Positions 3,894 through 57,930 of a DNA stretch of 64,000 nt are shown piece after piece (position 1 is the stretch's first letter; every line of letters starts with the position of its first letter). The notes beneath the pieces are model-generated. The model did no database searches and was not told where the DNA came from. It worked only from the letters and a program-made list of their open reading frames with translations. Origin of the DNA: Emiliania huxleyi CCMP1516 (taxonomy: Eukaryota); contig NW_005201213.1 in NCBI RefSeq assembly GCF_000372725.1, forward strand, positions 62,001 through 126,000. The letters run 5' to 3'. A program made the position numbers and the translations under genes.

Positions 3894-5333
3894 ATGTCCG
3901 CCTCCTCAGACACGCCGCCGCCCGCCCACCTTCTCGACCTCCCCACGGAGCTCGTCGAGCGGGCCCTCTCTCGCTGCGACAGCCCCGCCGACATCGCTCG
4001 CGTCGCGGCCGTCTCGATCCTCTTCCACGCCTCGCTCGCGGAGGCGGGCATCCGCTTGTGGGCGCAAGAGCGCGGCTTGGAGCTGCCGGCGCAGCCAGAG
4101 GGCGAGAGCTGCGCCGTGCGGTGGCTTTGCGTTGCTGCCTTGCTGCGCGAGGCCAACCCGCCGGCGAGGGTGGCGGCAGGCGAACGGCACAGCGTCTTCG
4201 TCGACGGCGAGGGGCGGCTCTCGTCATGCGGCAAGGGAGTCGTATGGACGCCAGGGCTGCTCGGCCACGGCGAGGGCGTGCTGCGGCTCAACACGCCGAC
4301 CCGCCTCCCATCGACGCTGGGCGGCGAGCGCGCCGTGAGCGTGTCGGCGGGAGGATACCACAGCCTCGCCCTCACCGCCGACGGAGCTGTCTGGAGCTGG
4401 GGTGAGGGATCCTTTGGCCGCCTGGGCCACGGCGACGAGCAGCACCAGCGGCAGCCGACGAAGGTCGAGGCGTTGGCTGGCCAGCGCGTCGTCGCTGTGT
4501 CGGCTGGAGGCGGCCACAGCCTCGCCCTCACCGCAGACGGCGCTGTTTGGAGCTGGGGCTGGGGAAGCTCAGGCCGGTTGGGCCACGGCGACGAGCAGAG
4601 CCAGCTGCTGCCAAAGAAGATCGAGGCCTTTGGTGGCCGGCGCGTCGTCGCCGTGTCGGCTGGAGAGTACCACAGCCTCGCCATCACCGCCGACGGCGCC
4701 GTTTGGAGCTGGGGCTGGGGAGGCCATGGCCAGCTGGGCCACGACAACCAGCAGCGCCAGCTGCTGCCAAAGAAGCTCGAGGCCTTTGCTGGCCAGCGCG
4801 TCGTCGCTGTGTCGGCTGCAGCGTACCACAACCTCGCCCTCACCGCTGTCGGCAGTGTCTGGAGCTGGGGCTTTGGAGGCCATGGCCAGCTGGGCCACGA
4901 CAACCAGCAGCGCCAGCTGCTGCCAAAGAAGGTCGCGGCCTTGGCTGCCCAGCGCGTCGTCGCTGTGTCTGCTGGATCCTTCCACGACCTCGCCATGACC
5001 GCTGACGGGGCCGTCTGGACTTGGGGCGATGGAGAAGACGGCCGGTTGGGCCACGGCGACCACCAGACCCAGTCGCTGCCGAAGCTGGTCGCGGCCTCGG
5101 CTGGCCAGCGCGTCATCGCTGTGTCGGCTGGACCCGATCACAACCTCGCCATCACCTCCGACGGATCTGTCTGGAGCTGGGGCGGTGGCGACTATGGCCA
5201 GCTAGGTCACGGCGACCGGGAGCGCCAGCTCGAGCCCAAGAAGATCGAGATGTGGGCGAGCCGGCCGCCCACGCCTGCTTCCTTTGACGGAGAGGACAGC
5301 AGCAACGGAGAGGACAGCGATTCGGACGAGTAG
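3894..5333 (+). CDS. F-box-like + RCC1-repeat protein
   Basis: N-terminal LLDLPTELVERAL (F-box-like), then about 7 repeats of VSAG.xHSLALTADGAVWSWG.G..GxLGHG. Intronless, ATG at 3894. Confidence 0.85.
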   Translation: MSASSDTPPPAHLLDLPTELVERALSRCDSPADIARVAAVSILFHASLAEAGIRLWAQERGLELPAQPEGESCAVRWLCVAALLREANPPARVAAGERHSVFVDGEGRLSSCGKGVVWTPGLLGHGEGVLRLNTPTRLPSTLGGERAVSVSAGGYHSLALTADGAVWSWGEGSFGRLGHGDEQHQRQPTKVEALAGQRVVAVSAGGGHSLALTADGAVWSWGWGSSGRLGHGDEQSQLLPKKIEAFGGRRVVAVSAGEYHSLAITADGAVWSWGWGGHGQLGHDNQQRQLLPKKLEAFAGQRVVAVSAAAYHNLALTAVGSVWSWGFGGHGQLGHDNQQRQLLPKKVAALAAQRVVAVSAGSFHDLAMTADGAVWTWGDGEDGRLGHGDHQTQSLPKLVAASAGQRVIAVSAGPDHNLAITSDGSVWSWGGGDYGQLGHGDRERQLEPKKIEMWASRPPTPASFDGEDSSNGEDSDSDE

Positions 5334-8195: not shown

Positions 8196-9162
8196 CTCCA
8201 TACGCGATCCTGCTCTCGCTCCGCCGCTCGTGCGCCCCGCGCATGTCGGCTTTCTCATGCCTCCGGCCTCCGAGCGCCCTCCTCGGGCGCTCGGGCGGTT
8301 GGGGATGGCATATTGGTTCCCTGGGCGTTCACTAGCGCTCGCTTGTGGGTGAGAACGGCGTTCTCTGGGTAAGCTCAGCTGTGAACTTCCCAGTTGTTTG
8401 CTCTCCCTCCCCCCTTACCCTGTGGTCATGTGACTTGCTAGCGGGACCTGAGTATTGTATAAAAATACTGTAAGGCACATCGGTTCCCTGGGCGTTCACT
8501 AGCGCTCGCTTGTTTGGTGAACGATTTTTCGTTTGGCAGTTGCATCGGTGGGAAATCGCTTTCAAGGCAAAACCCGATTTGTTCTGGGGCGCGTTACACC
8601 GATTCGACCACTAAATGTGACGTGTGGGAAGCCAAAAACCTCCCTTGGCTTCCCACACAAACCAGAAAGAAGGTCTCACAAACCCCCCTTCACAGGGGGA
8701 GCAGCAAATGAGGTAGTCTCTGCGCAGAGACTGTCCCAGTGAATTCGCCCTAAAGGCCTCCGAGCTCCGTGTGGACTCGCAGCTCCGGCTGGATGTCGGC
8801 GACCTAAAGCTCGGCGGTCGTCGCTCGCGGTCCCCGCGCCGCGGCGCCGACTGCGAGTGCGACTCCAGTCTCCACCTGTGGTAGCCGAAGCCGTGGCGCG
8901 TGGGTCGTGGGTGTGGAGTGTGGTGCGTGTGTGGATTTTATCATTTCCGTGCCCAGTGTTGAGTGCGGAAGATCGTTAAACAACACGCTGGCGCGGACAC
9001 CCATCAACAGCGTCACAACACGGCGCCGAACCGTAAAAGATCGAGACAGCGGCGGAGGACGGTAAGGCAGGCGTGGTGCAGACGTGGCTTAGCGGGGATG
9101 GGCAGGTTGACGCAACGTGCGTGCGTCGCGGTCTTCCGAGTCGCATCCGAGGAGGTACGAAC

Positions 9163-23000: not shown

Positions 23001-26000
23001 TGAGAGCGACCAATCAACCGTCCTGGTACGGACGGGCGATGGCGGGTTCCGACGCAACCGGGAGCAGCTGCCTGGGTCGCACCTGCACGGGCCGGATGCG
23101 GACCAGGAGTCCATCTACAGCGAGGTGGCTGTCCCCGTCCTTGAGTCCGTACTGCAGGGCTACAACGGCACGATCCTCGCATACGGCCAAACCGTGAGCG
23201 TGCTCCGCGAGCCGCCCCAGCCAGCGGGCCTGCTGCCGCCCACCGCAGTGTCGCTGCCTTCTGTAGGGGTCAGGGAAGACGTACACGCTACTCAATGGCG
23301 GGGGTGCTATTGCTCGCGCATCGAAGAGCGGGGGTGGTGGAAACTCGATGGCAGCCGTGGTTGCCTCCGCTGGCCTTGTGCCGCGGTTGGCGGCCGAGCT
23401 CTTCGTGGCCATCCAGTGCGACGTCCGCCACGTCTACAGCGTGTCAGCGAGCTTCTGCCAGATCTATAACGAGCAGGCGCGTCACGCAAAGGTGCGCGAA
23501 GCGCTCCCCGGCTCCACTTTATCATCTGTCGTTGCCCATAATTGCTGCAGGTTGATGACTTGTTGCGTCTGAAGAACAACAACCTCCGAATCAAGCCGAA
23601 GGGGGTCGGGACTGAGGTCGAAGGGCTGACGCGAACACGGTGCAACTCGGCCGAAGAGCTGCTGCAGCTCCTTGAGACCGGCCGTCGCAACATCATCTAT
23701 GCCGAAACCAAAATGAACAAATCTTCATCGAGATCGCACGCCGTGCTGCAAATGTACGTGACGCGCCGCGCTAGGATACTCGAGGGCCTCGGATCAAACT
23801 CCGGCCTCAGCGCGAGCCTCCGCTTGGGCGGCGACGTTCAGGCGACGCAGCTTACAGGAAAGCTCTCTCTCGTTGATCTTGCCGGTTCCGAACGCGTAAA
23901 GCGATCGGGCGCCGACGAGGAGAAGACTGGCAAGCGAATGAAGGAGGCGATCAACATCAACACGTCCCTCCTCGGCCTGTCCAACGTGATGAAGGCCCTC
24001 GGCCAGGCCGCGAGCCACGTGCCGTACCGTGACTCCAAGCTGACGCATCTGCTCTCTGACTCGCTCGGCGGCAACTGCCGCACGTCGCTCATTGTCTGCG
24101 CGAGCCAGGCATCGCTCGATGCATCGGAGACTACAGGTGCCCTCGACTTCGGCGCACGCGCCATGCAAGTCAAGGTGAGTGCCACCGTCAACTCCACGAC
24201 GGTGACTCTTGATGCCGCGGCCCTCGCAGACGACCTCTCGACGGCGATGCGCTTGCGTGCCGAGGGTGGCGTTGGAGGCCAGCTGCTGCAGCTGGAGGAC
24301 CAACTGAGACAGCGTGAGGATGCCCTCGGAAAGCTCACGCGGCAAGTAGCCGAGGCCGCTGCCGGTCGCGAGCGCGATCGAGCCGCGGCGGCAGCTGCGG
24401 CCGAGCAGAGCAACGCGGCACACAACGCGATGGTTGCGGAGCTCGAGCGAAAATTAGCAGCAGAGAGCGCGGCCGCAGCGGCGGAGCGGCAGCGCGCCGA
24501 GGCCGCGGCCAAGCGTGCTGAGGTTGCCGAGGGTCGTGCGGCGAGCGCTGCTGCCGAGGCGGCGTCGCTCCAGGCTGAGCTGTCATCCAAGGCGCTTGCC
24601 GAGGCAACAGAGCACGATGGGGCACTCAAGGCGCTAGAAATGGCGTGTGCTGCTGAAGCGGCTGCCGCGACGGAGGCTCGGCACCAAGCGGCCGCTGCAG
24701 CCGCCGATGGCAAGGTGCTCATACAGCGATTGCGCGAAGCGAACGCAGAGGCAGGCAGGGCACAGGCAGCCGCAGCCGTGGCGTCAGCGGAGACACGCGC
24801 GGCACTCGCTGCTCTGCTCGATGCAGATGCCGAGGTGGCGGGCGGGTGCGAGGAGGCGGCTGCGCGCATCACCCTGCTGCAAGAGGCGTGCGAGCTGCAG
24901 TCAACCTTGCGTGCGAGCGCTGAGACGGATCTGAGCAGCTCCAAGGCTGCGTGCCGCCGCCTCGAAGAAGAGCGCGATCGCTCGGACGCCGCGTTGCAGA
25001 GGGCGGAGCTGGCGCGAGACGGTGAGCGCACCGAGACGCAGGAGCAAACAGCGGAGCTCATCCGCTCCCGCGATGAGCTCGAGGCGGCGGCTGAAGGGCT
25101 CCATGCTACGGTTGCGTCGTTGCAGGGCCAGCTCTCCAACGCCGAGGGACGCGCAGCCGAGGAGGCGGCCGCCCGGCTGGAGCAAGTGCAGAGCCTTCGA
25201 CAGTCATACGACGAGGCACTCGCGAGGCTCGGCGTCTCGGAGGCCGAGGCCGAGGGGCTTCGCCAGCAATGCGACGAGGTATTGCGCGCCCTCGAGGAGT
25301 CGCGGCGCGCCCGGTTGGCGGAGGAGGCGACGCTGCGCACCGCGCTGGTGGAGCACGAGACGTCGCTCACCCGTGCGCTCGCCGATGCTCGTGCAAAGTC
25401 GAAGGCGCTCTCGGCGCTATTGGAGGCCCGCAAGGCGGAGAGTGAGCGGGCCGAGGGGCTCGCCAGCCGTGCGCACGCAGCGGAGGCGGCCTACGCTGCG
25501 AGCGAGGCGCGGGTGGGCGAGCTGGAGGCGTCGCTAGCTGGTGCGAGCGAGGAGCGAGCGCGGCTGCTTGAGGAGCTCGACGCGCTGACTATTGCGCGTG
25601 GCTTGGCTGACGGTCGGCTGACTGAGTCCGAGCTGGCGCGCGAAACAGAGGTGAGGAGCCTCGCCAGCTCTGCCGAGGCACGTGAAGCGGAGGCGCGGGC
25701 GTCGCTCGACGAGGCGCAGCGCACCGCTGCCGTCTACAAGCAGGAGCTCGAGGCAGCAGCGGCTGAGCAGCGGCGTTCCACCGAGGAGCTGCGCGCTCGG
25801 CTACAACGGGCGGCCCTCTTCGGTGCTGCGGCCGAGAAGCAGCGGCACGAACGGGCGGAGGCGGCGCGTGGCGTCGCGTCGGATGCCGCGTCGCGCGCCG
25901 CCCAAGCGCACGCGTCGTGGTCGGCCGCGCTGCACGCTCAAAAGACGGCGCTCTCGCGTGCGCTCGGCGACGCCAGAGCGGAGGAGATGCGCCACCTGCG

Positions 26001-26661
26001 CGAGATGCTGCTCACGGGTGTCTTGGCTGTCAAGCATGGCCGGAAGGGCAAGCCGCACCCGCGGCACATCCGGTGCGACCTGTCGCTCCGGCGGCTGGAG
26101 TGGGGTGCCTCAGCGGTGGCGCCCGCCGAGAAGTGCCTGCTAGCTGACGAGGTGGTCGCAATCACGCCCGGCCTGACGACCGACGTGGCGCGGCGAGGTG
26201 CGAAGGCGGGAAGCAAGGCGAGTGGCAAGGCCGGCGGGAGGGGCCGCAGCGCTGCGGACTTGCGCGACAACCTGTTCCTCTCTGTCGTCAGCCCCACCCG
26301 GACGCTCGACCTTGAGTTTCGGTCGGCAGAGCTACGTGATGCGTGGCTGGCCACTCTTCTCAAGTGGCGTGAGCACGTCGCTACCGGAGACCTCGCACCA
26401 ACGCGGCGGCAAGTTCGAGCCAGCTCACCGTCGGTGGCTTCCCTGCGCTCCGATGGTGACGTCGCTTACATCCCCGGGCCACAGTCCGATGAAGTGGGCC
26501 TTACAAAGCGCCCGTCGAGCGCTGGCAAGCGCGCCCTGCAACGCGCAGCCTCAGCTGTCGCTGTGGGCGGAGGGACGGGCGGCTCGACCGGCTCGCCGCC
26601 ACTTGGTCCTGCAAGGTCGGCCGACGTGGACGAGGCCATCGCGGAGGCTCTCGCAGAGTAA
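23001..26661 (+). CDS. Kinesin motor + long coiled coil + C-terminal PH domain (5' start uncertain)
   Basis: GYNGTILAYGQT|GSGKT, SSRSHA, DLAGSER and HVPYRDSKLT motifs. Introns 23194-23266 (GT-AG) and 23477-23550 (GC-AG). PH-like KHGRKGKPH...RTLDLE...RDAW. Confidence 0.9.
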
Positions 26662-26938
26662 GCACGCCACGGCATACTGTCCGCTTACGGCGGGCGCGTC
26701 CGAGGTCCGTCCCGTAGATTGCAGATCTTTCGTTTGACCCGGCACGCACTTGGATGGACTTCTCTCGTATGATACATTAATAAACAAAGGACGCATGATC
26801 GCGACTGGTGACACGCGCCGGCTGCGGCTCGGCCTCTGATGGCTCGGCCTCGCGCGCCGGCCGCTCCGCGCTCGGGCTCGGTCCACTTCGTGTGGGTCAA
26901 GAGTTTGAGCGTGGTCTCTGTGCGAGTCTGGCCCGCCC

Positions 26939-28113
26939 TCAGAGTTCAGCCTTCGCGGGACACGTGTCGCACGAAGCCGCGCACGCCTTGTGCATGTAGC
27001 CTGAAGCGCACGGGAACCCGCTCAGCCAACGGCCTCTCTCTCGGCCTCACCGTCACTAGCGTGAGGAAACGCGCCCGGGTTAGCGTCGCACTCGCCCGCA
27101 TCGGCCCACGCGCCGCACGCGTCGCTGTCGTCGGTACACGACCGCGGCGGTGGGGGCGGCGCGTGCACGGCGCTCGGGTCGGTGCCGTCGAGGCTATCGA
27201 TCGAGGCCTAAAACAAGAAAACGAGTGAGAAAAAGAAATACCGAGCGGCAGCGAGGCTGTCGATCGAGGCCATCTGCGCGGCCGACAGGTCGAAGGCAAA
27301 CAGGTCGAGCCCCTCCGCCATGTGGCGTCGCTTGGTGGAGCGAGGGATGACGGCGACGCCGTGCTGCAGCGCCCACCGCAGCGCCACCTGGGCGGTCGAC
27401 CTTCCCACCTCGGCCGCCACCGCGCCCAGCACCGGGTGGCGCAGCACCGGGTTGACGCGCACGCCACGGCCGGCCCACTGCGTGCCGAGCGTCGAGTACG
27501 CCTGGAAGAGGATGCCGTGCGCTCGGCACACCTCCCGCAGAGGCCGCTCCTGGTGCAGCGGGTCCATCCAGCTCTGCACGATGTGCGGCGGCGTACGCGC
27601 AAACCCGAGCAGCTGCTGGAGCTCGTCGGGCGAAAAGTTGGACACGCCGAGCGCACGCACCTGGCCCTGCTCATAGAGCGACTCGAGGGCGCGCCACGAC
27701 TCCCGCCAGGTGCCCTCGGGCTCGCGCCCGCCGCACAGGTCGCCAAAGCAGCGCGGGTAGTGCAGCAGAAACGCATCGATCGTCGACGTCTGCAGGTTGC
27801 GCAGCGACGCGGGGAACGCGCGGAGCGTGCTCTGCTCGCCGAGGTCCCGTGGGTGGAGCTTAGAGGTCAGGAACACAGCGGAGCGGTTCACGGACGACAT
27901 GGCGAGCGCCACGCCCAGCTCCTCCTCGAGGTACCACTCGCTCGCCTGCGAGGTGTCGAACAGCGCGTAGCCGAGCTCGAGCGCCTCGCCCAGCGGCTTG
28001 CGGCCGATGCGGCCGGCGCAGCCGTAGCCGACGAGCGGCATTCGCACGCCATTCGACAGCAGCGCCGACGTGGCTTGCCGCGTCGGATCTGTGCGGCTAC
28101 TCTCTCTCGCCAT
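26939..28113 (-). CDS. Aldo-keto reductase with C-terminal ShKT domain and terminal KAEL
   Basis: MPLVGYG, FDTS, FLTSKL, LLHYP, GVSNF, QAYS and IPRS motifs. GC-AG introns 27208-27270 and 27001-27074 give CTDDSDACGAWADAGECDANPGYMHKACAASCDTCPAKAEL*. Confidence 0.8.
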
Positions 28114-28193
28114 TCGTGTGCCGGAAGGGCTGGGGTGGGCGCGCTCGTGGCCGTGCTGGCCGAGATGTCGGGCTAACGAGTCCGTGTACCTAG

Positions 28194-28646
28194 GTACGAC
28201 TTCTGTGCGAGGAGTACCCGGCGCCGGAGAGGGTCGAGGGACAGAGCTACAACCCGTGCTACGACAAGTACACGCCCCGCGCGCTCTTCGAGGGCATGCA
28301 CAACGCGTGGACGCACTACCTCAACTCCCTCGTCCGGCTGCAGCGCATCTTCAAGCGGCTCAACGCGATCGGCAAGGCCGAGTTCCACATGCGCCATCCG
28401 CCGCCAGAGCCGGTGCGGCGAGAGATCGGCAACGGCGACGTCGATTACGACTACTCTATGCCGTCTCGCGTCTCCATCAACGGGACCGACTCGTTCATGG
28501 ACATCAGCAGCTACAAGACGTTTGTGGAGTACAACACGGACTGGGGCGTGACGGCCGACGACCTCCTCCCTCCCCCGCTCTTTCGGCTCGTCCGACTTCA
28601 TCGCAGGGGGACGGACGACGCCGGCTTTGATCTTGACGGCTACTGA
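28194..28646 (+). pseudogene. Orphan 3' exon of an unknown protein
   Basis: Begins after a CCTAG acceptor with coding-like codon usage (SYNPCYDKYTP...FDLDGY*). There is no room for upstream exons before the divergent reductase gene. Confidence 0.35.
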
Positions 28647-28651
28647 TCTCC

Positions 28652-31600
28652 ATGATGGCCGACGACTCTCAATCGTTCTCCCTCTGGATCGACGAGTTGC
28701 TGACCGGTGTCGACGACGGCGGCGACGGTGGCGGCGGGCTCGGCGGCGGGCACGGTGGTGAGGGCGGTGGTGGCGGCGGTGGCGGCGGCGGCGGCGACGG
28801 CGACCATGGTTGTGACGACTTGCCATCAACCTCTTGCTTGACGACAGCCTCCTCGTCTCCCTTTACTCCGACCTCGACGCCGCTGCCGCCGCCGCCTCAA
28901 GCGTGCTGGGGTGGCCTCCTCATGGGCGACTCGCTGCACTGTACAACGCTCCTGACGGGCGGCGACTTCCGGCGCATGTTCTGCACGCGCTGCCTCGAGC
29001 GCGGCGTCACCTTCCCCGCCGATCGAGTGCGGATCTGGTGCGCTGCCGGCAGTGCGCCACCCGCAAACACAAGGAGCCACGCCTTTTGGACGAAGCGGCT
29101 CGAGGGCGGGCCGCGCTTTCGCGTGGCCAACAATACGTCTCGCTGCAAGGGCCCACCCCTGTTGATCTTCGAGCACCCAACGAACGATGCATCCCAGCCT
29201 CCGTCGGCGTTGGCGATGGGATGGCGGCTTGCGCCTGAAGGCTCCTCGCTCTCTCCTTCTCCCTCGGGGTGGCCGCCGGGGTGCCTGGCCGCCGTCCCGC
29301 CAGAGTACCTCTCCCTCGACGGCCGAAGCATCACGCTGCACGTCAGCAACTCGACCCTTACCCCGGGAAAGAGGCAGCACACGGCCGGCGAGAGCCTCAG
29401 GACGGACAACGCGATGCTCACGTTCGGGCGCGCGAGAGCCAGAATGCGGGATGGTACAGCGCCGAGTGCCGAGGGTTAGTGACACACTTCACAGCGTAGG
29501 CGGGTGAGCGACCTCATCGGGCTGGAGATGGCCTCCCTTGCCGGCGCCGCCTCCCTCCCCCTCGACGAGCAGCGGGCTCGCTTCGGCGGCACCGCTGCCG
29601 AGCGGTTCGCGCTCCTTCAGCGGCTTCGGGAGGCGCTGGTCGGCGAGTTGCAGGGCCTCCCGGTCGCAGAGCTGCAGGGCCTCCTCGATCGCGTCGAGGC
29701 GGAGCTTCTGGCGGGTGGCGGCGGCACAGCGGCCGGGAGCTTGCCCTCTCCTGCGCCGTCGCCCCCAGAGCCAACGGCAGCGCCGATGCTCGACTTGCTG
29801 GGCGCTTCGACCGCCACGAGCGGAGCCGCGCCGCCCTCGAAGCTGTCCGAACGACAGGTTTGCTCATCCGCACGCCTTGCAACTTTAATGCCGTGGCGGC
29901 CCCTGCCTGTTACCTACCTTGTTGAGCCGCAGGGCTTGCTCGACCACGTCTCGCTCCCGTTGTCCCGCTCCCTGCCTCCGGTGGCACAGCTCTCCCGGGG
30001 CGCCGCCCTCATGCAGCGGCACCGCGCTGCCCCGTGGCTCCCGTGGCTTTTGGTGCTCGTGCAGTTCGCGCTCGACGCGACCTTGTATGGTGCGCGCTCA
30101 GAGGGAGCCTTGAACGGTCAGGTCGGTCTGCCCCGAGACGCCACTCTCTCGCCGCAGGTCTCGCCGAGAACGGGTCGCTCGACGGTGGCGTGTTCGGCCA
30201 CCGCACGTTACACGCAACTTCGCTCGGTGTTCTCGACTTCACCGGCGCCGGGTCGTGGGCGGGCGGCGAGGCTGAGGGCGCATCTCCTGCCGCCACTCTC
30301 GCCGCCACCGCCCTCGCCACCCTCGCCGCCACCGCCCTCGCCACCCTTGCCGCTTCCGCCCTCACAACCTCCGCCCTCTCCGCCGCCGCCCTTGCCGCCG
30401 CCGCCCTCGCCGCCTTCGCCCTCGCTGCCACCGCGCTCGCCGCTGCCGGACCGGGAGCGGCTGCCGCAACCACGTTTGACATAGCGGCCGTCTTCAGCGC
30501 GCGGCACTGGCGGCAGCTGCTGCCCCTCCCGGTGCGTTGCAGCGGGAAGAGACGCCGCTCACAGCCCGCAGCACTTGAGCGGTGCCCCTGCGGTGCCCCC
30601 TTTCCGCAGGTGTTCGCTGGTTCCCTCCTGGTGTGGCTGCCCCTGCTCGGGCCTCGGAGGGCCGCCTCGGACCCGCCGCCCCTCCCGCTCGTGCTTCTCT
30701 GGAGTGGTGACCCCCCCCCCCCCCCCCCCCGCTGCCTCCCCGAGTCCTCCCCCCGCCCCGCCTCTCCCCGCGCCCCTCCAAGGGAGCAGCTGTGGTGCCG
30801 ATGCATATGAGGCTGAGAGTGTGTCCATACACATACACACACATATTCCCGCCAGCCGGTTCGGCCCCCGTTCACCCCCGTGCCCGACGGTGTGATCTCG
30901 CAGGCCTCGCCCTGGCCAAGCTGTGTACTCCGGACGCGGGCTTGCCGACCGAGCAGGTGCAAGGGGGTAGATCTAGCAACATAGCGCCGCACCTCTGTCC
31001 GCCTCTGCTACCTCTTGCTTGTGCCACCCCTGTGCCACCCCTGTGGGCTTGCCCCTCCGGAGACTTTGGCATGCCCAGACCTCACGCCCGTATCTCACCC
31101 GCATCTCTCGCCCGTGCGCACAGGAGGGCTCCTCCGTCGCCCGCGGTGTCGTGCAGGCCGACTGCCTCTTCCGCCTCGTCCTCGTGCTGGGGGTGGTGTC
31201 GCGCCGCATCGGCACGTGGGAGTGGGTGCGCCATCTCGGCACCCGCTCTCGGCGTCATCCCCGCTGTATCTGGGCAGCATCTCGGCCGCATGCCGGCACG
31301 CCGTTTAAGCCCCAACTCGCGGGAAAGTGGCGCACGTGTGGCCGCCTCTCCTCCCGCCCCTTCCCCCGCGCTCCCCTCGACCTGCGGCTACCTGATGTGC
31401 TAGGCACGAATCGCCTACATGAGCTACGGGCTCGCGACCGCCGCCGCGTCGGGATACGCCCTCCACTGCCTCCGCCGCAGCGGCGCGGATGTCGCGGCCG
31501 CCGCCTTCCCGCCCCTCGGCGGCTCGTTCGCCGGCTCGCTCTCCTCTACGCGTGCAACCAATATGATTCCCGATGACCAGCATTCGTCGAGAGCGATAGG

Positions 31601-31784: not shown

Positions 31785-33005
31785 AGCCCCGCGGCGAGAG
31801 CTACCCCTCACAACTCACTTGCGACATGGGTCCGAATTTGCGCCGCCGGCGCGCGTAGGTTTCTGAGTTGTGTTCTGTCAGCGTTTTTTCTTCTCGGACG
31901 TAAAAGCAGTCTAGACCTCCCACCTACCCCGCACCTCTATCTCGCCAAACCAGCGTTTTCTTCTTGCTTGTGCTGGAGGATGCGGTGACCGACGGCGAGC
32001 AATGAAACTCTCCGGCTACGACGACGCGTGCGGTCACCCACGCCGCCAGCGTCTAGCTCGTGAGTGAGCTCGTGTTGCTGGCAACTGCTGCGACCTCGTT
32101 GCTTGCGCCGTGTACACGCACGTGCGTGTGTGTGGTACACAATGGTAGTGGATGGATGGATGGATGAACAGTGAACAGAACTCTATGCACTGGCTACGGA
32201 TCCTTTTTTGTTGCCAAGAAGTTTTTTGTTCCCGGCGGCACGGGACGCGGCCCAAACGGGGCACTGTTCTTCGTCGTTGGCGCTCGAGGCGTGCAAAGCG
32301 GTGTGCTCCAGCCTCCAAAATTGCAGAGCGATGGAGCATTGCGCCGGGAGCGGGTGTCAGGGAGAATGCCTGCTCTTCTCCTCCTCTGACTTTTGCGGAG
32401 GGTCGGTTTCGGTTCCCGCACAGCGAAATGAGCGACGCGGTAATAAAGCTCTGCGTGACATGCACATGCACGATCCCCACAAGGAACCCAGCACACGCCA
32501 CACCCACACCGAATGACGTCGACGAGGATACCATTCGCGCGCCTGCCTAGAAGTTTACAGCGCTGAAAAGTCCGAGCTCCGACCGTGACTGACCAGGGAT
32601 TCCGCCGCCGATTTTGATGAAGTTGAAGAGTCACCACGCAGTGCTCTTTTGGCCCCCGAGAACTTGTGGTCGAACTTCGAGCCATCCGATGGCGAAAAGC
32701 CCGTCCACGACTTGCGTGGCGACGGTTGTGACGGCCGAGTTCGTACGCAACCTGCACCGGCTGGCAGATACGTGGTCAGGCCCAATGCTCCCCTACATCG
32801 ATTAGCACGTGGCGGAAACGATTAGCAATCGACACATCCGCACCGAACCCACCCTCAGCGGGGCCTCGACACAAGGTTCCGGCTGCAGCTGGCGTTGCTG
32901 GGAGACGGCATGCCGGCAGTAGTGCACTGAAGTCGTGTGCTGCACTGAGAGATTTGCGCGGTGGCGGAGAGTGTCTGGCGGTGCCGATGCTTGTGTTCTC
33001 TTTTC

Positions 33006-33520
33006 GGAGCTGGGGCTTTGGAGACTTTGGCCGGCTGGGCCACGGCGAGCAGGACCATTCGCAACCGAAGAAGATCGAAGCCTTTGCTGGCCGGCGCGTC
33101 GTCGCTGTGTCGGCTTCGATCGAGCATAGCCTCGCGCTCACCGCCGACGGCGCCGTCTGGAGCTGGGGTGGTGGAGGCTCTGGCCAGCTGGGCCACGGCG
33201 ACCAGCAGCGCCAGCTGCTGCCGAAGAAGGTCGAGGCCTTTGCTGGCCAGTATGTCATCGCTGTGTCGGCTGGAGCATTTCACAGCATGGCAATCACCGC
33301 CGACGGCGCCGTCTGGAGCTGGGGCGGTGGATACATTGCCATGTTGGGCTATGGCGACCAGCAGCGCCAGCTGCTGCCCAAGAAGGTTGAGGCCCTTGCT
33401 GGCCAGCGCGTCGTCGCTGTGTCGGCTGGAGCATGGCACAGCCTCGTCATCACTTCCGACGGTGCCCTTGCGCTTCAGGCTACATGCACAAGGCGTGCGC
33501 GGCTTCGTGCGACACGCTGA
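33006..33520 (+). pseudogene. 5'-truncated RCC1-repeat gene fragment (left arm of inverted duplication)
   Basis: Three RCC1 repeats nearly identical to 42081-42600, with no F-box or start codon. Confidence 0.75.
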
Positions 33521-42080: not shown

Positions 42081-43150
42081 TCAGCGTGTCGCACGAAGCC
42101 GCGCACGCCTTGTGCATGTAGCCTGAAGCGCAAGGGCACCGTCGGAAGTGATGGCGAGGCTGTGCCATGCTCCAGCCGACACAGCGACGACGCGCTGGCC
42201 AGCAAGGGCCTCAACCTTCTTGGGCAGCAGCTGGCGCTGCTGGTCGCCATACCCCAACATGGCAATGTATCCACCGCCCCAGCTCCAGACGGCGCCGTCG
42301 GCGGTGATTGCCATGCTGTGGAATGCTCCAGCCGACACAGCGATGACATACTGGCCAGCAAAGGCCTCGACCTTCTTCGGCAGCAGCTGGCGCTGCTGGT
42401 CGCCGTGGCCCAGCTGGCCAGAGCCTCCACCACCCCAGCTCCAGACGGCGCCGTCGGCGGTGAGCGCGAGGCTATGCTCGATCGAAGCCGACACAGCGAC
42501 GACGCGCCGGCCAGCAAAGGCTTCGATCTTCTTCGGTTGCGAATGGTCCTGCTCGTCGCCGTGGCCCAGCCGGCCAAAGTCTCCAAAGCCCCAGCTCCAG
42601 ACGGCGCCGTCGGCGGGGAGGGCGAGGCTGTGCAGACCTCCAGCCGACACACCCACGGCGCGCTCGCCGCCCAGCGTCGACGGAAGGCGGGTCGGCGTGT
42701 TGAGCAGCGTCATGCCGTGGCCGTGGCCGATGAGGCCTGAGATGGCATGCACTGGCGAATGCGCAGCCGAGCCGCACGATGAGAGCCGCCCCTCGCCGTC
42801 GATGAAGAGGCTGTGCGACTGGCCTGCTGCCAACCTCGCCGGCGGGTTGGACTCGCACAGCAGCGCAGCGAGACACAGCCACCGCACGGCGGAGCCCTCG
42901 CCCTCTGGCTGCGCCGGCAGCTCGAAGCCGCGCTCTTGAGCCCACAAGCGGATGCCCTCTAGCGCGAGTGAGGCGTGGAAGAGCAGCGAGACGGCCGCGA
43001 CGCGAGCGATGTCGACGGGGTCGCAGCGAGAGAGGGCGCGCAAGAGGAGGTCCGTGGGGAGGTCGAGGAGGCGGGCGGGCGGCGGAGTGTCTGGCGAGGG
43101 GGCGGCGGCGGCGGAGGCTGGGGCGAGGCGGCGCGAGGCGGGGCAGACAT
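42081..43150 (-). pseudogene. F-box-like + RCC1 gene copy with frameshifted start and foreign 3' end
   Basis: The ATG at 43150 is out of frame with the F-box/RCC1 frame. RCC1 repeats stop at about 42140, where reductase-derived sequence begins. Confidence 0.7.
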
Positions 43151-50023: not shown

Positions 50024-51678
50024 AGCCGACTGGTGTACAACTAACAACACCCCAAAACGTGTATCGATGCGGAGCGCGTGACTCCCGAGGTGAGCTCCGG
50101 CGGGCGGGGTCTACGCTTTGTGCCAGAGCCCGACCTCACACCCATGCGCCATAGTCTAAGGGGGGGTTGAAAGAGGCTCGATAATATTACTTCCTTGTAT
50201 TCAATACGCACGCCGCCTTGGTAGAGGGTCCGCAGCGTCCTAATCTAAAATCTGAGGATTCAGGATTGAGGCATCGCTTCAGTGAGGTCAAAGTGAGTTT
50301 ATGGATGTGTGAGAACGGTACAGGACACGAGGAGTCACGCGGACCGACTCGTCGGTGACTCTGCTGCACGCCGTTTCATAGTTTTTCTCAGCGTGAGCGA
50401 GACGTGGAAGAGTGCCACCGTCGGGTAGGACGGTCGGCCCGGAGTATCAGAGTAGCCGTCGTGGTCGCGGCGAGCAGCGCCGGCCACTCCGGCGCCGCGT
50501 CGGCACCGTGGGAGCATGTCCACCGCCACTTCGCGGTCGCAGCGCTGTTTTGTCGCGAAACGCCGCATGTACCTCTGGCGAGCCAAAGATCGACTCGCAT
50601 GTCGATTTCGACTTGACGGGCGCATGGAGGCATCACGTCTCCATTGCCGCCGTCAAGTCGGAGCCAGTCTGCGGCGACCACAGCGCTTGCAGGAGGTACA
50701 TGCGAGCTTTTCAGAGTCAAGCGATTGCGCGGAATCCCACACTGGTGGATTTGGGATCCGTAGCCAGTGCATAGAGTTCTGTTCACTGTTCTCTCGAGGT
50801 TCTCGAGGTGGATATCCTTTGGCCGCGTTGGGTAGCGAGGATGTGAGTGTGTGTGTGACGCGAGGATTGGTGTAACCCGAGCCACGGAGGCGTGTTTTCT
50901 GACGGCCGACCGTCAGTGCACGGAGTTGCCCCTTCTCCGACTGCCCCGGCTAGTTCACGGGTTTCGCGGGAGTGACCCCATGCGTCAAACCCGAGACCTA
51001 GCGCGGGTGGGTTGGAGGGGGGCTCGCTGCAGGGAAGGGCTGTGTAAGAAGCCGATCCCCGTAGTCTGCCCCGCTCCTCCCCATCGGGCCGCATGAGCGG
51101 CCACGCCTCGCAGATTCGTTTTCGCGCCTGGGTCAGGCGCGCGGGGCATCCCCCGGGTCGCTCGACCAGCGGTCCGAAGATGTGGCCGCTATGCGAAGGA
51201 AAGAGTGGGGCCCTCGACGCCTCAGTCCGGCCCTCCGAGGGGGGAAGGGAATTGCGGGGTCCCCACGGGCGCCTCAGTTCGGCCCTCCCGAGGGGGGGGG
51301 GGGGGGGGGAACAAAGGGGTGGGGGGATTTGGGTTGTGGGAAAGGGTCTCGTTTCGTGCCCCGCAAAGCGTCTCGGTTCGTCGTCCCGCGCGGGGCCGGC
51401 CCGTGGGGCTCCAGAAGGGCCGGAATCCTCGCCGCTGGTGGCGTGTCGCAGTCTCGGCACACCCGTGATGTGCTCTGTGATGTATGGCTTCTAGCTGGAA
51501 ACGGTCTAGCTGGAGCGTGCGCGGGCCGCGGGCGGCGGGGCCCCGCGGGGCCGCGGCCCCGCGCGGCGGGCGGGTTGCCGCCGGCGGCGACGCTGTCGCT
51601 GCGATTTCGTGTCGTGTGTGCATGAAAAGTGCAGATGTAACTTAGCATGCGGGCGGACCCCTCACAGCTCACAGCTCA

Positions 51679-53175: not shown

Positions 53176-56100
53176 CTCCGCCTCCGCTTCCGCCCTCATC
53201 CTCGCCTCCTCCCTCTCCCTTGCCGCCTCCTCCCTCGCCCTCGCCTCCGCCTCCTCCCTTGCCCGCGATGCCGCCTCCGCCTCCTCCGCCGCCCGCGCCG
53301 CCGCCTCCGCCTCCTCCGATGCCCGCGCCGCCCGCGCCTCCTCCGCCGCCCGCGCCTCCTCCGCCGCCCGCGCCTCGTCCGCCGCCCGCGCCGCCGCCTC
53401 TGCCTGCCTCGCCGCCGCCTTCTCCTCCTTCTGCCGCTGCCGCTTCAGCGGCTTGGCCAGGTCATCGCGCAGCAGCCGCGCCGCCCGCAGCGCCTCCGAG
53501 CCGTTGGCGGCGTCGACGTTCGCGTTGATCGCCGCCCTGAGCGCCTCGAGATCGGCGTCGCCTCGGCCGCACGCCTCAACCGCCTCGCGCAGCGCAGCCT
53601 CGGCAGCATCGCGCGCCTCCGCCGCCTCCGCAGCCGCTGCCGCCTCGCGTGCGGCTGCCGCGGCCTGTTCTACCACCGCCGTCTCCCCCTCAGCCTCTGC
53701 TGCGGTCGACGAGTGCTCCTCGAGGGCGCACACGCACGCGGCGTGGCCATTCTCCTCGGCCCAATGAAGCGCCGTGTTGCCGTTCGCATCGCGCGCCGCC
53801 GTGTCTGCGCCCGCCTGCAGCAAGCGCCGCACGACGGCGGTGCGGTTGAAGAAGGCGGCGCCCATCAGCGCGGTCCAGCCTTCGCTGCTCTGCAAGTTGA
53901 CCTCAGCACCATGTCGTATCAGCAAGTCGACCACCCGCTCGTGGCCCTGGAGGGCGGCGAGCGTCAGCGCGGTGTAGCCATTGCTGTCCTGCAAGTTGAC
54001 ATCAGCGCCGTGCTGGAGCAACACCTCGACCACCCGCTCGTGGCCGTGGACGGCGGCTTTCATCAGCAGCGTGATGCCGCTCGTCTCGCCCTTCTCGTAC
54101 GTCGCGTCGGCCCGCCCGCCGCCCTCGAGCCACGCCAGCACCGCCTCCTCCTTGCCTCCCTCAGCCGCTGCCACGACCGCGTCGGGGGCTGCCACGCCGC
54201 CGCTCGACGCCCGCCCCGCCGCCGCCGCCGGAGATAGCGTCTTCGCGACTCTCGGTCCAGCCGAGGAAGCGCCGCCGGAGGAAGCGCCGCCTGCGCCTGC
54301 GCCGCCGGCTGCCGCCGCAATGGGCCGTCCCGCCACCACCGACTCCTTGACGTGCTGCCGGAAGGCCTCGACGCACTCGGCGTGGCCCCTCTCCTTGGCC
54401 CAATGCAGCGCCGTCATGCCGCTCTCACTGCGCACCGCCGTGTCTGCGCCCGCCCGCAGCAAGCACCGCACGACGGCGGGGTGGTTGAAGGCGGCGGCGC
54501 CGATCAGCGCGGTCAAGCCGTTGCTGCTCTGCAGGTTGACCTCAGCACCGCGCCGTATCAGCAAATCGACCACCCGCTCGTGGCCATAGTGGGCGGCGCC
54601 CATCAGCGCGGTGCTGCTGACGCTGTCCTGCAGGTTGACCTCAGCGCCGCGCTGGAGCAGCAGCTCGACCACCCGCTCGTGGCCTTCGCTGGCGGCGTCC
54701 ATCAGCGCGGAGTCGCCCTCGCTGCTCTGCAGGTTGATCTCCGCGCCGCGCTGCAGCAACAGCTCGACCAGCCGCTCGTGGCCGTGGTTGGCGGCGCCCA
54801 TCAGCAGCGTGAGGCCGCTCACCTCGCCCTTCTCGTACGTCGCGTCGGCCCGCCCGCCGCTGTCAAGCCACGCCAGCACAGCCTCCTCCTCGCCCCGCTC
54901 AGCTGCTGCCACGACCGCATCGGGGGCTGTCGCGACACCGCTCGACGCCCGCTCCGCCGCCACCGCTGGAGACAGCGTCTTTGCAACTCTCGGTCCAGCC
55001 GAGGAAGCGCCGCCGGAGGAAGCGCCGCCTGCGCCTGCGCCGCCGGCTGCCGCCGCAATGGGCCGTCCCGCCACCACCGACTCCTTGACGTGCTGCCGGA
55101 AGGCCTCGACGCACTCGGCGTGGCCCTTCTCCTTGGCCCAACGCAGCGCCGTCTTGCCGCTCATACCGCGCGCCGCCGTGTCTGCGCCCGCCCGCAGCAA
55201 GCACCGCACGACGGCGGGGTGGTTGAAGAAGGCGGCGTTCATCAGCGCGGTGGAGCCTTTGCTGCTCTGCAAGTTGACCTCTGCGCCGTGCTGCAGCAGC
55301 AGCTCGACCACCCGCTCCTGGCCGTAGCGGGCGGCGTGCATAAGCGCGGTAGCGCCGTTGCTGTTCTGCAGGTTGACCTCAGCGCCGTGCCGCAGCAGCA
55401 GCTCGACCACCCGCTCGTGGCCCTGGAGGGCGGCGCCCATCAGCGCGGTGACGCCGCCGCTGTTCTGCTGGTTGATCTCAGCGCCGCGCCGCAGCAGCAG
55501 CTCGACCACCCGTTCGTGGCCCTGGAGGGCGGCGCCCATCAGCGCGGTGCCGCCGTCGCTGCTCTGCAGGTTGATCTCCGCGCCGCGCTGCAGCAACAGC
55601 TCGACCAGCCGCTCGTGGCCGTGGTTGGCGGCGCCCATCAGCAGCGTGAGGCCGCTCACCTCGCCCTTCTCGTACGTCGCGTTGACCCGCCCGCCGCCCT
55701 CGAGCCACGCCAGCACCGCCTCCTCCTCGCCTCGCTGAGCTGCTGCGACGACCGCATCGGAGACTGCCACGCCGCCGCTCGACGCCCGCCCCGCCGCCGC
55801 CGCCGGAGATAGCGTCTCCGCGACTCTCGATCCAGCCGAGGAAGCGCCGCCGGAGGAAGCGCCGCCTGCGCCTGCGCCGCCGGCTGCCATCGCCGTGGGC
55901 CGTGCCGCCACGACCGACTCCTTGACGTGCTGCCGGAACGCCTCGACGCACTCGGTGTGGCCTTGATCGTTGGCCCAATGCAGCGCCGTCTTGCCGCTCG
56001 CACTGCGCGCCGCGGTGTCTGCGCCTGCCTGCAGCAAGCGCCGCACGACGGCGGGGCGGTTGAAGAGGGCGGCGTACATCAGCGCGGTGTAGCCGTTGCT

Positions 56101-57354
56101 GTTCTGCAGGTTGATCTCAGCGCCGCGCCGAATCAGCAAATCGACCACTTGCTCGTTGCCGTTGCCGGCGGCGCAGATCAGCGCGGTGCGGCCGTCGCTG
56201 TCCCGCAGGTTGACCTCAGCGCCGTGCCGTATCAGCAGCTCGACCACCCGCTCGTGGCCTCGGAATGCGGCGAACATCAGCGCGGTGCTGCCGTTGCTAC
56301 TCTGCAGGTTGGCCTCTGCGCCGTGCTGCAGCAGCAGCTCGACCACCCGCTCGTGGCCTTTGACGGCGGCGTCCATCAGCGCGGTGATGCCGTTACTGTT
56401 CTGCAGGTTGAGCTCAGCGCCGCGCTGCAGCAGTAACTCGACCACCCGCTCGTGGCCTTCCTGGGCGGCGTTCATCAGCGCGGTGTGGCCGATGCTGTTC
56501 TGCAAGTTGACCCCCGCGCCGCGCCGTATCAGCAGCTCGACCAACCGCTCGTGGCCGTAGTTGGCGGCGCCCATCAGCAGCGTGAGGCCGCTCGCCTTGC
56601 CTCTCTCGTACGTCGCGTCGGCCCGCCCGCCACTGTCGAGCCACGCCAGCACCGCCTCCTCCTCGCCACGCTCCGCTGCTGCGCTAACCGCATCGGAGGC
56701 TGCCGCGGCACCGCTCGACACCGCCGGCGACAATTTACTCGGCCGCACCCGCACGCTCTCGCCGCCGCCCTCGAGCGCCACCGCGTACCGCCCGCCCTCG
56801 AAGCTCTGTGCCACGCCCCGCTGCCCGTTCAGCTCGGGGCGGGCCGAGAGCCCGCCGAGCACGACTCGCTGGCCGAGCAGCGGCGCGTCCACCGCTGCCG
56901 CTGCCGCGCCCGAGGAAGCGCCGCCCGCCCCTGCCCGGCCGTCTGCAGCCGCCGCCGCCTCCGACAAAACCTTGACGCACTCGGCGTGGCCCTTCTCCTT
57001 GGCAAACTGCAGCGCCGTCTTGCCGTGAAGAGTGCGCGCCGCGTCTGCGCCCGCCCGCAGCAAGCGCTGCACGACGGCGGGGTGGTTGAGGAGGGCGGCG
57101 ATCATCAGCGCGGTGCCGCCGTTGCTGTTCTGCAGGTTGACATCAGCACCGTGCTGCAGCAGCAGCTCGACCACCCGCTCGTGGCCGTAGCCGGCGGCGG
57201 TCACCAGCAGCGTGAGGCCGCTGATGCCGTCTCTCTCGTACGTCGCGTCGGCCCGCCCGCCGCCCTCGAGCCACGCCAGCACCGCCTCCTCCTCGCCACG
57301 CTCAGCCGCTAGCACGGCCGCATCCGAGCAGCTCAGGGAACCAGCACCCACCAT
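51679..57354 (-). CDS. Multi-ankyrin + coiled coil + IRAK/Pelle-like kinase + RING + RGG-tail protein
   Basis: Five ankyrin blocks, GEGGFGRVY, AVK, HRDVSAGN, DVG, GYMDP, and CDLC...CGH..C..C...CPAC. Intronless ORF. Confidence 0.9.
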
Positions 57355-57930
57355 GGTCCCCGCTGTGTCGGCCCCGTGAACCGTCAGCTGTGAGAGCTCC
57401 TGTGTGTCTCTCACACCCTCACTGTCGGCGTATGCGTGCTTCTTGTTTTCTTATCACCCTATCTGTGAAGAGTGCGTAAGGGGTTGTTTTTGTCATGAGC
57501 TTGCCTGCGGCGAGGGCGGTCGAGTGCACGGAGCTAAGTGCCTCGCCGTCCTCGCAGGAGTCGCTTAGGCGGCTCCCGCGTGGTGTACACCTGTGTTAGT
57601 GCCAGTGCGCACCAGTCCCGTGCCTATAGTGTCGTGCGAGGAGTTGTTCGTAAGATTCTTTTTGTCAGTGGACAGTGCGCGCCAGTCCCGTGCCCAGGTA
57701 CACCACAGGCAAAAAGAATTTTAGAAGAGGCGCGGCACCGGCTGAGACGGAAGGGGGGGGGGGGGCAACATGGCACGGATGCTGCATTTCCGAGCGTCAA
57801 CATTTCACGACATCTGGTGGCTCCATCCGAAGCCGTTGTCGACAAAGTTCAGAGGTTCGCGAGAGTTGAACTCTACCCAGCTGCCGAGGTGGGCTGATAG
57901 CGGCGTGGCCAGCAAGAGTGTAACAGAGGG

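What the first reader, a model, noticed from the sequence alone, without database searches (positions are those of the whole stretch)
27189..27271. Intron gain in the reductase by 20-bp exon duplication plus pyrimidine-rich filler
Seen: GGCCTCGATCGA(C/T)AGCCTCG is duplicated around TATTTCTTTTTCTCACTCGTTTTCTTGTTTTAG. A 63-nt GC-AG intron (27208-27270) removes a stop and opens the ShKT exon. On the other strand the filler is A-rich, like the fillers at LINE 5' junctions in this window. Inference: abortive retrotransposition or break repair creates spliceable introns.
Basis: partly seen in the sequence, partly recalled or inferred. Interest (0 to 1): 0.8.

Follow-up and report, generated by a model that had tools for sequence, protein, structure and literature searches.

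The report
Young repeat-flanked intron in coccolithophore reductase
A 63-base intron in an Emiliania huxleyi reductase gene is really spliced out and was found only in this lineage; it likely arose when a small T-rich insertion duplicated 20 bases of the exon, giving a clean example of how a new intron can be born.

Summary
A 20-nt direct repeat (27189-27208 and 27252-27271, 19/20 identical, 63 nt apart) brackets a 43-nt, mostly T-rich spacer on the minus (coding) strand.

The gene is Emiliania huxleyi EMIHUDRAFT_362921, an aldo/keto reductase (AKR) fused to a ShK-like domain.
- **Spliced:** RNA-type contigs from 3 studies skip exactly 63 nt. The only GY..AG register on the coding strand is 27270→27208 (GC-AG).
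- **Present in DNA:** a DNA-like run and a metagenome contig both keep the intron.
- **Ordinary features:** GC donors and intron retention are normal in this species, and the AKR-ShKT fusion is ancestral in haptophytes. The intron lies inside the AKR domain.
- **Lineage-specific:** no genomic copy from six other lineages has an intron at this site. E. huxleyi nests among intron-less copies, so a gain is the most parsimonious reading.
- **Tandem allele:** one natural allele carries the repeat-plus-spacer unit twice (period 64, 2.3 copies).

A LINE origin has no support. Break-repair-type insertion with duplication fits best. Remodelling of an older intron by spliced-RNA-templated repair is a serious rival.

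At least one other RNA-verified intron in the window, and three unverified candidates, share the same architecture.

The parts
27271..28113 (-). Exon 1 coding part (ATG 28113-28111 to ATG codon 27273-27271): aldo/keto reductase, 281 codons
   Evidence: Translation. 100% identical to P0003 and P0004 (EMIHUDRAFT_362921). Pfam PF00248. RNA-type contigs cover 27260-28163.
27252..27271 (-). Upstream repeat copy R1: the last exon base (27271) plus the first 19 intron bases. It supplies the GC donor (27270-27269) and repeats the codons for ASIDSL.
   Evidence: Register.
27208..27270 (-). 63-nt GC-AG intron, phase 0, between Met and Ala of ..AAQM|ASIDSL..
   Evidence: Skipped in contigs of X1, X2, X5 and X6. 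Kept in the DNA-like run X11 and in the retained-intron contigs of X7 and X8. The spliced product equals the database proteins P0003 and P0004.
27208..27251 (-). The non-duplicated 43-nt spacer (27209-27251) plus G 27208, which completes the AG and also belongs to the downstream repeat copy. Contents: an 11-nt GC-rich, hypervariable start; a candidate branch motif CTCAC at 27229-27225; a pyrimidine tract; AG at 27209-27208. The in-frame stop TAG is 27210-27208.
   Evidence: Sequence. No other copy in the window or in 23 loci. The branch site is inferred from the sequence only.
27189..27208 (-). Downstream repeat copy R2: the G of the acceptor AG (27208) plus the first 19 bases of exon 2
27075..27207 (-). 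Exon 2: end of the AKR domain, a Pro-rich linker, and the first part of the ShK-like domain
   Evidence: Translation. Contigs. Pfam PF01549 at residues 280-315 of P0004.
27001..27074 (-). Second intron, 74 nt, also GC-AG, phase 1 (..NPG|YMHK..), with no long flanking repeat
   Evidence: Skipped in X1, X2, X5, X6, X7 and X8 (joint 26998|27073, 3 letters fitting either side). It is 78 nt in L001.
26939..27000 (-). Exon 3 coding part up to stop TGA 26941-26939. Transcript contigs run on to about 26751-26763.

Best explanation
This is a real 63-nt GC-AG spliceosomal intron (27270->27208, minus strand) in the Emiliania huxleyi aldo/keto-reductase-ShKT gene. It is absent at this site from every other haptophyte genomic copy examined. 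It likely arose when about 43 bp of T-rich DNA was inserted together with a 20-bp duplication of the exon sequence at the insertion point, a break-repair or target-site-duplication type of event.

How it works:
- Shown: the upstream repeat copy lies at the very start of the intron and provides the GC donor.
- Shown: one repeat-plus-spacer period is removed from the RNA, which restores exactly the conserved coding sequence ..QM|A.ID.LDGTDP...
- Inferred from sequence: the inserted spacer provides a branch-like CTCAC, a pyrimidine tract and the AG.
- Inferred: the two repeats then act as substrates for unequal exchange or slippage. This would explain a natural allele that carries the unit twice.
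- Shown for the contigs, not for any protein: when the intron is retained, the mRNA still encodes a complete AKR domain plus a 14-residue hydrophobic tail and stops before the ShK-like domain.
For: 1. The repeat is far beyond chance: 0 of 100 shuffles.
2. It is spliced. Contigs of 1227-1295 nt in X1, X2, X5 and X6 (3 studies) skip 63 nt. X1 and X2 have 0 differences from the window. The only coding-strand GY..AG register is 27270->27208.
3. It is present in DNA. X11 has depth in 30 of 30 bins, and its 1313-nt contig crosses both introns without a skip. Metagenome contig L001 also keeps it.
4. The product matches conserved orthologues with no residue gained or lost.
5. No intron lies at this site in genomic contigs of six other lineages: L002/L003/L004/L008, L009/L012, L011, L013, L014 and L016. 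L010 is also uninterrupted there but is short and may be a transcript.
6. In the ML tree, E. huxleyi sits in a 97/94-supported clade with the intron-less L002/L004. The other intron-less loci and the green-algal outgroup lie outside it. One gain is therefore set against two or more events for an old intron.
7. The spacer is 43 nt of unrelated, locally unique sequence ending in a good 3' splice region.
8. L001 carries the unit in tandem: TRF period 64, 2.3 copies, 89% matches.
9. GC donors (56-65% of junctions) and pervasive retention (478 of 535 introns) are normal for this species (PMC4028052, passages read).
Against: - No source for the spacer was found, and no genome of the organism is held.
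- No allele with an empty site was seen. All 3 genomic haplotypes examined (window, X11, L001) have the intron.
- The closest genomic relative is only 72% identical in protein, so the gain is dated no better than 'after that split'.
- In the 5 in-register repeat-spacer-repeat pairs of this window, the repeat begins exactly one base before the exon-intron boundary. A random break with random filler does not predict that, whereas templated models do.
- The three intronic repeat copies (window R1, L001 R1 and R2) are identical at 19 of 19 positions, while the spacers differ at 4-9 of 45 positions. That is odd for neutral young sequence.
Confidence: 0.5

Rival explanations
1. An older, lineage-specific intron already sat at this site and was later remodelled. 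A break near its 5' end would have been repaired by copying from spliced mRNA or cDNA across the exon1-exon2 junction for about 20 nt, then end-joined to the remaining 3' part of the intron. This amounts to an aborted reverse-transcript-mediated intron loss. On this reading the repeat is secondary and the 'filler' is the old intron's 3' end.
For: - It explains why the repeat abuts the last exon base exactly, and why the spacer ends in a complete 3' splice region (branch-like CTCAC, T tract, AG).
- The same exact register is seen in 5 of 8 non-domain repeat-spacer-repeat pairs in the window, with repeat lengths from 19 to 43 nt and unrelated spacers.
- In the dinucleotide control with rough repeat edges (which placed only 3 of the 5 within one base of the edge), GC/AG and its one-base shift GG/TA scored 3 of 8; 214 of 256 pairs scored 0.
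Against: - No relative with an intron at this site was found.
- I found no description of such a mechanism in the searches made.
- The event would have to leave a usable GC donor by chance.
Confidence: 0.22
2. The spacer is a small intron-generating transposable element (introner-like) that inserts with a target-site duplication, one copy of which is co-opted as the splice donor.
For: The architecture (duplication, then an element ending in AG) is the logic I recall for introners; no paper was read on this. Several similar structures occur in one 64-kb window.
Against: - The spacer has no second copy in the window or in 23 related loci.
- The spacers of the five cases differ in length (43-124 nt), and I saw no similarity between them by eye.
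- No inverted repeat lies in the spacer.
- The duplications have unequal lengths.
Confidence: 0.08
3. Abortive LINE retrotransposition: a severely truncated target-primed insertion flanked by a 20-bp target-site duplication.
For: A 20-bp duplication is within the range I recall for LINE insertions. The spacer is A-rich on the + strand.
Against: - An A-rich tail should abut the downstream repeat copy. On the + strand the A-rich part abuts the upstream copy, and on the minus strand the end next to the downstream copy is T-rich.
- There is no similarity to any other sequence of the window.
Confidence: 0.04
4. An ancient intron lost repeatedly elsewhere, with the repeat arising by chance or being kept by selection or gene conversion.
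For: The intronic repeat copies are invariant while the spacer varies. Gene models P0005 and P0016 hint at introns 27 nt and 6 nt away from the two E. huxleyi introns in relatives.
Against: It needs two or more losses on the tree. The repeat is not a chance match.
Confidence: 0.06
5. Not splicing at all: the 63-nt gap in RNA contigs would come from a DNA allele lacking the unit, or from reverse-transcriptase template switching between the repeats.
For: Deletion between the repeats gives the same product as splicing. Template switching at direct repeats is a known artefact (recalled; no paper read).
Against: - The gapped form is the only form in contigs of 4 runs from 3 studies, two of them identical to the window elsewhere.
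- It matches the conserved protein.
- The neighbouring GC-AG intron, which has no long repeat, is removed in the same contigs.
Confidence: 0.03

Closest known systems
[quoted passage not shown] Described in PMC3296678, passages read; the Daphnia paper itself is recalled, not read.
   Same: A lineage-specific intron. Unrelated inserted DNA is flanked by a direct repeat of the target, and splicing restores the original frame.
   Different: The repeat here is 20 nt; the Drosophila survey read used repeats of 5 bp or more. The repeat starts exactly at the exon boundary and provides a GC donor. The source of the filler is unknown. A tandem two-unit allele exists.
Tandem genomic duplication model of intron gain (Rogers model; the potato RdRp case, PMC4974935, was seen only in a search listing).
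   Same: A duplicated exon segment provides a splice site, and one period is removed.
   Different: Only 20 of the 63 nt are duplicated exon. The rest is foreign. The repeat contains no AGGT, and the acceptor comes from the spacer.
Intron polymorphism by repeat expansion in Cryptococcus (PMC2395259, passages read).
   Same: Copy number of an intron-containing repeat unit differs between alleles: 1.3 units in the window against 2.3 in L001.
   Different: Here expansion lengthens one intron (63 to 128 nt) rather than adding separate introns, and the unit spans the intron-exon boundary.
Introner elements that co-opt a target-site duplication as a splice site (Micromonas, Aureococcus; recalled, no paper read on this point).
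   Same: The intron equals one duplication copy plus the inserted sequence, and is removed precisely.
   Different: No multi-copy family, no terminal inverted repeats, and variable duplication length.

Membership tests
Spliceosomal GC-AG (U2-type) intron | Absent from mature RNA but present in genomic DNA | tested here: met
   Skipped in contigs of X1, X2, X5 and X6. Present in the DNA-like run X11, in L001 and in the window. The runs are only guessed to be RNA, but they skip both introns and leave intergenic bins empty.
Spliceosomal GC-AG (U2-type) intron | GC at the 5' end and AG at the 3' end in a register compatible with the observed joint | tested here: met
   The joint has 12 ambiguous letters. 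The only coding-strand GY..AG register is 27270->27208.
Spliceosomal GC-AG (U2-type) intron | Branch site used in lariat formation | not testable with these tools
   Only a CTCAC motif 18 nt upstream of the 3' end and a T tract are seen.
Recently gained intron (break-repair type) | Absent at the orthologous position in related lineages | tested here: met
   Genomic contigs of six other lineages have no intron there. Polarity comes from the tree. Sister genera were not available.
Recently gained intron (break-repair type) | Direct repeat of the target flanking the insert | tested here: met
   20 nt, 19 of 20 identical.
Recently gained intron (break-repair type) | Identifiable donor of the filler (nuclear, organellar or cDNA) | tested here: inconclusive
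   No match in the 64-kb window or in 23 loci. No whole genome or organelle genome is held.
Recently gained intron (break-repair type) | Presence/absence polymorphism within the species | tested here: not met
   All 3 genomic haplotypes examined have the intron (window, X11, L001). Only unit number (1 versus 2) and point differences vary.
Tandem-duplication intron (Rogers model) | The intron consists of duplicated exon sequence, with an AGGT inside the duplicated segment | tested here: not met
   43 of the 63 nt are not exon-derived, and the repeat has no AGGT.
Introner / transposon-derived intron | Multi-copy family with defined termini | tested here: not met
   Single copy in the window and loci; no inverted repeat in the spacer. 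Genome-wide status could not be tested.
LINE (target-primed) insertion | 3' tail (A-run) next to the downstream duplication copy, and similarity to a LINE | tested here: not met
   There is no A-run at that end in either orientation and no similarity to other window sequence.

The most novel reading that the evidence does not exclude
Emiliania huxleyi has an active, genome-wide process that makes or remakes introns so that the intron begins with a 19-43-nt copy of the first bases of the downstream exon. The copy supplies a GC donor, and the intron ends in a spacer-borne AG. This would leave a datable footprint on a sizeable share of its short GC-AG introns, and it could help explain why GC donors dominate in this species.
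Probability: 0.3. Interest if true: 0.8.

Novelty: new member of a known kind. Interest (0 to 1): 0.5.

Why it matters
Clear cases of young spliceosomal introns that still carry the footprint of their origin are rare. The mechanisms of intron gain are still argued from a handful of species.

This case combines five things in an ecologically dominant alga:
- RNA evidence of splicing;
- DNA evidence of presence;
- comparative polarity pointing to a gain;
- a 20-nt duplication that supplies the donor;
- a natural two-unit allele.

If the same architecture proves common among E. huxleyi introns, as the window hints, the species would become a system in which intron birth or remodelling can be counted and dated across strains.

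Tried and rejected
- **Whole genome of the organism:** none is held, so there is no genome-wide census and no search for the spacer's source.
- **Run listing:** The look-up of sequencing runs listed no holder on record as RNA. The runs used are guessed RNA, judged by their behaviour.
- **Alternative 34-nt GT-AG intron (27241->27208):** rejected. Its length is not a multiple of 3, so it shifts the frame away from the ShK-like domain. No contig shows it, and the GT is lost in the X11 haplotype.
- **My first guess for intron 2** (a GT donor at GACG|GTGAGG): wrong. The contigs show the GC register 27074->27001.
- **Verifying the candidate intron 13222-13133:** I tried through database proteins. 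The 99%-identical P0124 reads through and stops inside the candidate, and the more distant homologues run on. It remains unverified.
- **Repeat scans:** the first scans were swamped by RCC1-like (156-nt) and ankyrin-like (99-nt) coding repeats and by 6- and 10-mer satellites. These were excluded by rule. My indel-tolerant seed missed the 31533 pair, which I added by hand.
- **Read-through frame under selection:** all 3 intron differences in X7/X8/X11 are synonymous in that frame (GCT to GCG; CGG to AGG to AGA). However, they are clustered, and L001's unit has a frame-shifting 1-nt indel. No conclusion was drawn.
- **Literature:** no held paper describes repeat-flanked introns in E. huxleyi. 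The genome paper (Read et al. 2013) is not held, and neither its text nor its supplements were seen.
- **Earlier notes of this scan:** nothing relevant.

Full report
**What is in the sequence.** On the minus strand an ORF runs from 28320 to a TAG at 27210-27208. The same frame continues at 27207.

The 20-mer with up to 3 mismatches occurs nowhere else in the window, and 0 of 100 shuffles give two hits. The single mismatch (27196 versus 27259) is GAT/GAC, which is synonymous.

Between the copies lie 43 nt. The first 11 nt are GC-rich. That T-rich stretch is unique in the window.

**Which gene.** Exon 1 (28113-27271) translates to an aldo/keto reductase (AKR). It is 100% identical to P0004, the hypothetical protein EMIHUDRAFT_362921 of Emiliania huxleyi CCMP1516. 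P0004 carries PF00248 plus PF01549 (ShK-like). P0003 and P0004 read ..AAQM|ASIDSLDGTDPS..NPG|YMHKAC.., which is exactly the product of removing 27270-27208 and 27074-27001.

**Is it spliced?** No whole genome is held. Eleven runs of one organism label hold the stretch.
- Laid on 26400-28600, single contigs of 1227-1295 nt in X1, X5 and X6 skip 63 nt at 27196|27260, with 12 letters fitting either side. They also skip 74 nt at 26998|27073, with 3 letters fitting either side.
- X2 does the same. These four runs come from three studies.
- The X1 and X2 contigs have 0 differences from the window.
- By script, the only GY..AG register on the coding strand that fits the 63-nt joint is 27270->27208.
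- The 74-nt joint fits 27074->27001, which is also GC..AG.
- X11 behaves as genomic DNA. It has depth in 30 of 30 bins, including bins where the RNA-type runs have none, and its 1313-nt contig crosses both introns without a skip.

The 63 nt are therefore in DNA and absent from mature RNA.

X7 and X8 (one study) hold both forms. A 111-nt contig retains the intron, and their exon contigs end at 27208 or start at 27260, where the spliced and unspliced forms part. In X7 a 48-nt contig also fits the spliced form; this is inferred from its 10 loose letters and one mismatch. Word depths in X7 are 189 for the retained form and 91 for the spliced form. These are contig depths, so they are only a rough guide.

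**How ordinary are these features?** In the passages I read of PMC4028052, GC donors make up 56% of 241 curated junctions and 61-65% in other sets. AG acceptors are about 99%, and 478 of 535 inspected introns show reads through them. A GC-AG intron with some retention is therefore the norm for this species.

**The fusion is old.** Haptophyte proteins carry the same AKR, then ..IDALDGTDP..PPPPPR.C.., then the ShK-like domain, without extra or missing residues at the intron site. These include Prymnesium parvum, Chrysotila carterae, MMETSP entries and many metagenome entries. Pfam places the AKR domain at residues 19-264 of P0004 and the intron after residue 257. The intron therefore interrupts the last helix of the reductase domain, not a domain boundary.

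The retained-intron ORF (window 27211-28113) still scores as a full AKR domain (profile 27-290 of 291), because the intronic repeat copy re-encodes ASIDSL.

**Is it a gain?** One metagenome scan gave 23 loci. By tblastn:
- L002, L003, L004 and L008 (72% identity; contigs of 4-40 kb) match residues 1-315 in one uninterrupted stretch.
- L011 and L013 also match in one uninterrupted stretch.
- L009 and L012 have a different, GT-AG intron inside the ShK-like domain.
- L014 has an interruption further upstream.
- L016 is uninterrupted at this site.
- L010 is also uninterrupted there, but it is short and may be a transcript.
- L005-L007 are short and may be transcripts. I do not count them.

No genomic copy from these six lineages has an intron at M|A, and none has one at NPG|Y.

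In an IQ-TREE tree of 32 rows, E. huxleyi plus L001 sit inside a clade with 97/94 support that also holds L002 and L004. The other intron-less loci, the Pavlovales and the green-algal outgroup lie outside it. One gain on the E. huxleyi branch explains this. An older intron needs at least two events. Sister genera could not be examined.

**A tandem allele.** L001 is a metagenome contig whose exons are 99.6-100% identical to the window. In it the intron is 128 nt: repeat, spacer, repeat, spacer, repeat. TRF gives period 64, 2.3 copies and 89% matches.
- The spacers differ at 4-9 of 45 positions, and the window's spacer is also 1 nt shorter than L001's two.
- The three intronic repeat copies (window R1, L001 R1 and R2) are identical at 19 of 19 positions.
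- X7/X8 and X11 carry further variants, confined to 27241-27244.

The locus is therefore variable in the species complex, and the repeats probably mediate unequal exchange. The invariance of the intronic repeat copy next to a hypervariable spacer start is unexplained.

**Mechanism.** A LINE origin is not supported. The A-rich side does not abut the downstream duplication copy in either orientation, and the spacer matches nothing else in the window or loci (best 11 nt, E about 1). A pure tandem duplication is excluded, because 43 of the 63 nt are not exon-derived. An introner-like family is not seen, though only 64 kb could be searched.

What remains is insertion with a 20-bp duplication (break-repair type). 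I take this as the best reading, at about 0.5.

One pattern argues for a templated alternative. I enumerated direct repeats with 17 or more matches in 18 at spacings of 35-300 nt. I set aside satellites and coding-domain repeats, both those flagged by the script and two RCC1-spaced pairs (16630, 33028) that I dropped by eye. I added one pair with an indel by hand. That leaves 8 repeat-spacer-repeat pairs.
- Six of the 8 have a GY..AG register on one strand.
- In five of those six the repeat starts one base before a GC donor, and the spacer ends in A before the shared G. These are 27270-27208, 31534-31599, 13222-13133, 8308-8474 and 57693-57624.
- In the control over all 256 dinucleotide pairs, 214 give 0 of 8. 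That control used rough repeat edges, which placed only three of the five within one base of the edge. Only GC/AG and its one-base shift (GG/TA) reach 3 of 8.
- Of the five, 27270-27208 and 31534-31599 lie in the 20 kb where RNA was laid, and both are skipped in contigs.
- The other three lie outside that region and are unverified. For 13222-13133 the database protein P0124 reads through it.

A random break with random filler does not predict that exact edge. Copying from spliced RNA or cDNA across the exon junction into a broken older intron would predict it. So would an element whose own end is the AG. I give the first of these 0.22.

**Verdict.** The retrotransposition inference is not supported, and the GC-AG ends and the ShKT 'opening' are ordinary. 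The single case is a good new example of a known kind of intron gain. The repeated architecture within one window is the part worth following up.

Noticed in passing
window 31534-31599 (+): A 66-nt GC-AG intron, skipped in contigs of X5 and X8 (9 letters fitting either side). Its first 19-20 nt copy the start of the downstream exon apart from a 1-nt indel. This is the same architecture as the finding.
   Followed up: partly
window 13133-13222 (-): A candidate 90-nt GC-AG intron. A 32-nt copy of the downstream sequence is followed by 5.8 copies of a 10-mer (GAGATTAGCC) ending in ..TAG. Database protein P0124 (99% identical) reads through it and stops; more distant homologues continue. Not verified.
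   Followed up: partly
window 8308-8474 (+), 57624-57693 (-), 51221-51272 (-): Three more repeat-spacer-repeat pairs with an in-register GC..AG. In two of them the repeat lies at the 5' edge of the putative intron, and in one at the 3' edge. Their contexts do not look clearly coding, and no RNA was laid there.
   Followed up: no
window 27001-27074 (-); L001: The second intron of the gene (74 nt, GC-AG, inside the ShK-like domain) is also absent from all related genomic contigs examined. It is 78 nt long in L001 (a 4-nt insertion).
   Followed up: partly
window 27241-27244; runs X7, X8, X11: Three intron haplotypes exist. All three differences are synonymous in the read-through frame (Ala GCT to GCG; Arg CGG to AGG to AGA). 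The retained-intron contigs in X7 and X8 carry the AGG form. The retained mRNA would end in a 14-residue hydrophobic tail after a complete AKR domain.
   Followed up: partly
proteins P0005 and P0016 (relatives): These gene models leave the conserved sequence after ..IDALDGT and after ..GECDA. This suggests introns 27 nt and 6 nt away from the two E. huxleyi intron positions in other haptophytes. Their DNA could not be fetched.
   Followed up: no
window 10130-10460 and the following N run: Arrays of telomere-like hexamers (GGTTAG/GGTCAG/GATCAG variants) run into a gap of N. The window holds 968 N, and GC drops to 0.42 in 10001-12000. This is either an interstitial telomere-like repeat or an assembly join.
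   Followed up: no
window 9790-9960 and 12700-12950: Arrays of a 10-mer (ATATCTCCCC and its complement), partly inside longer 70-103-nt repeat units. They look like intron or UTR satellites.
   Followed up: no
window 4300-5100, 16600-17600, 33000-33400, 42100-42650; 53900-56500: Coding repeats with 156/162-nt periods (RCC1-like by period and sequence) occur in four places. Some are mutual reverse complements, which hints at a large inverted duplication centred near 37-38 kb. A 99-nt (ankyrin-like) repeat array lies at 53.9-56.5 kb. The family names are my guess; no family search was run.
   Followed up: no
window 23542-26661 (+): A long ORF with a kinesin-motor-like start and an Ala/Glu-rich coiled-coil-like tail lies just upstream of the reductase gene's 3' end. 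The naming is from my own reading; it was not searched.
   Followed up: no
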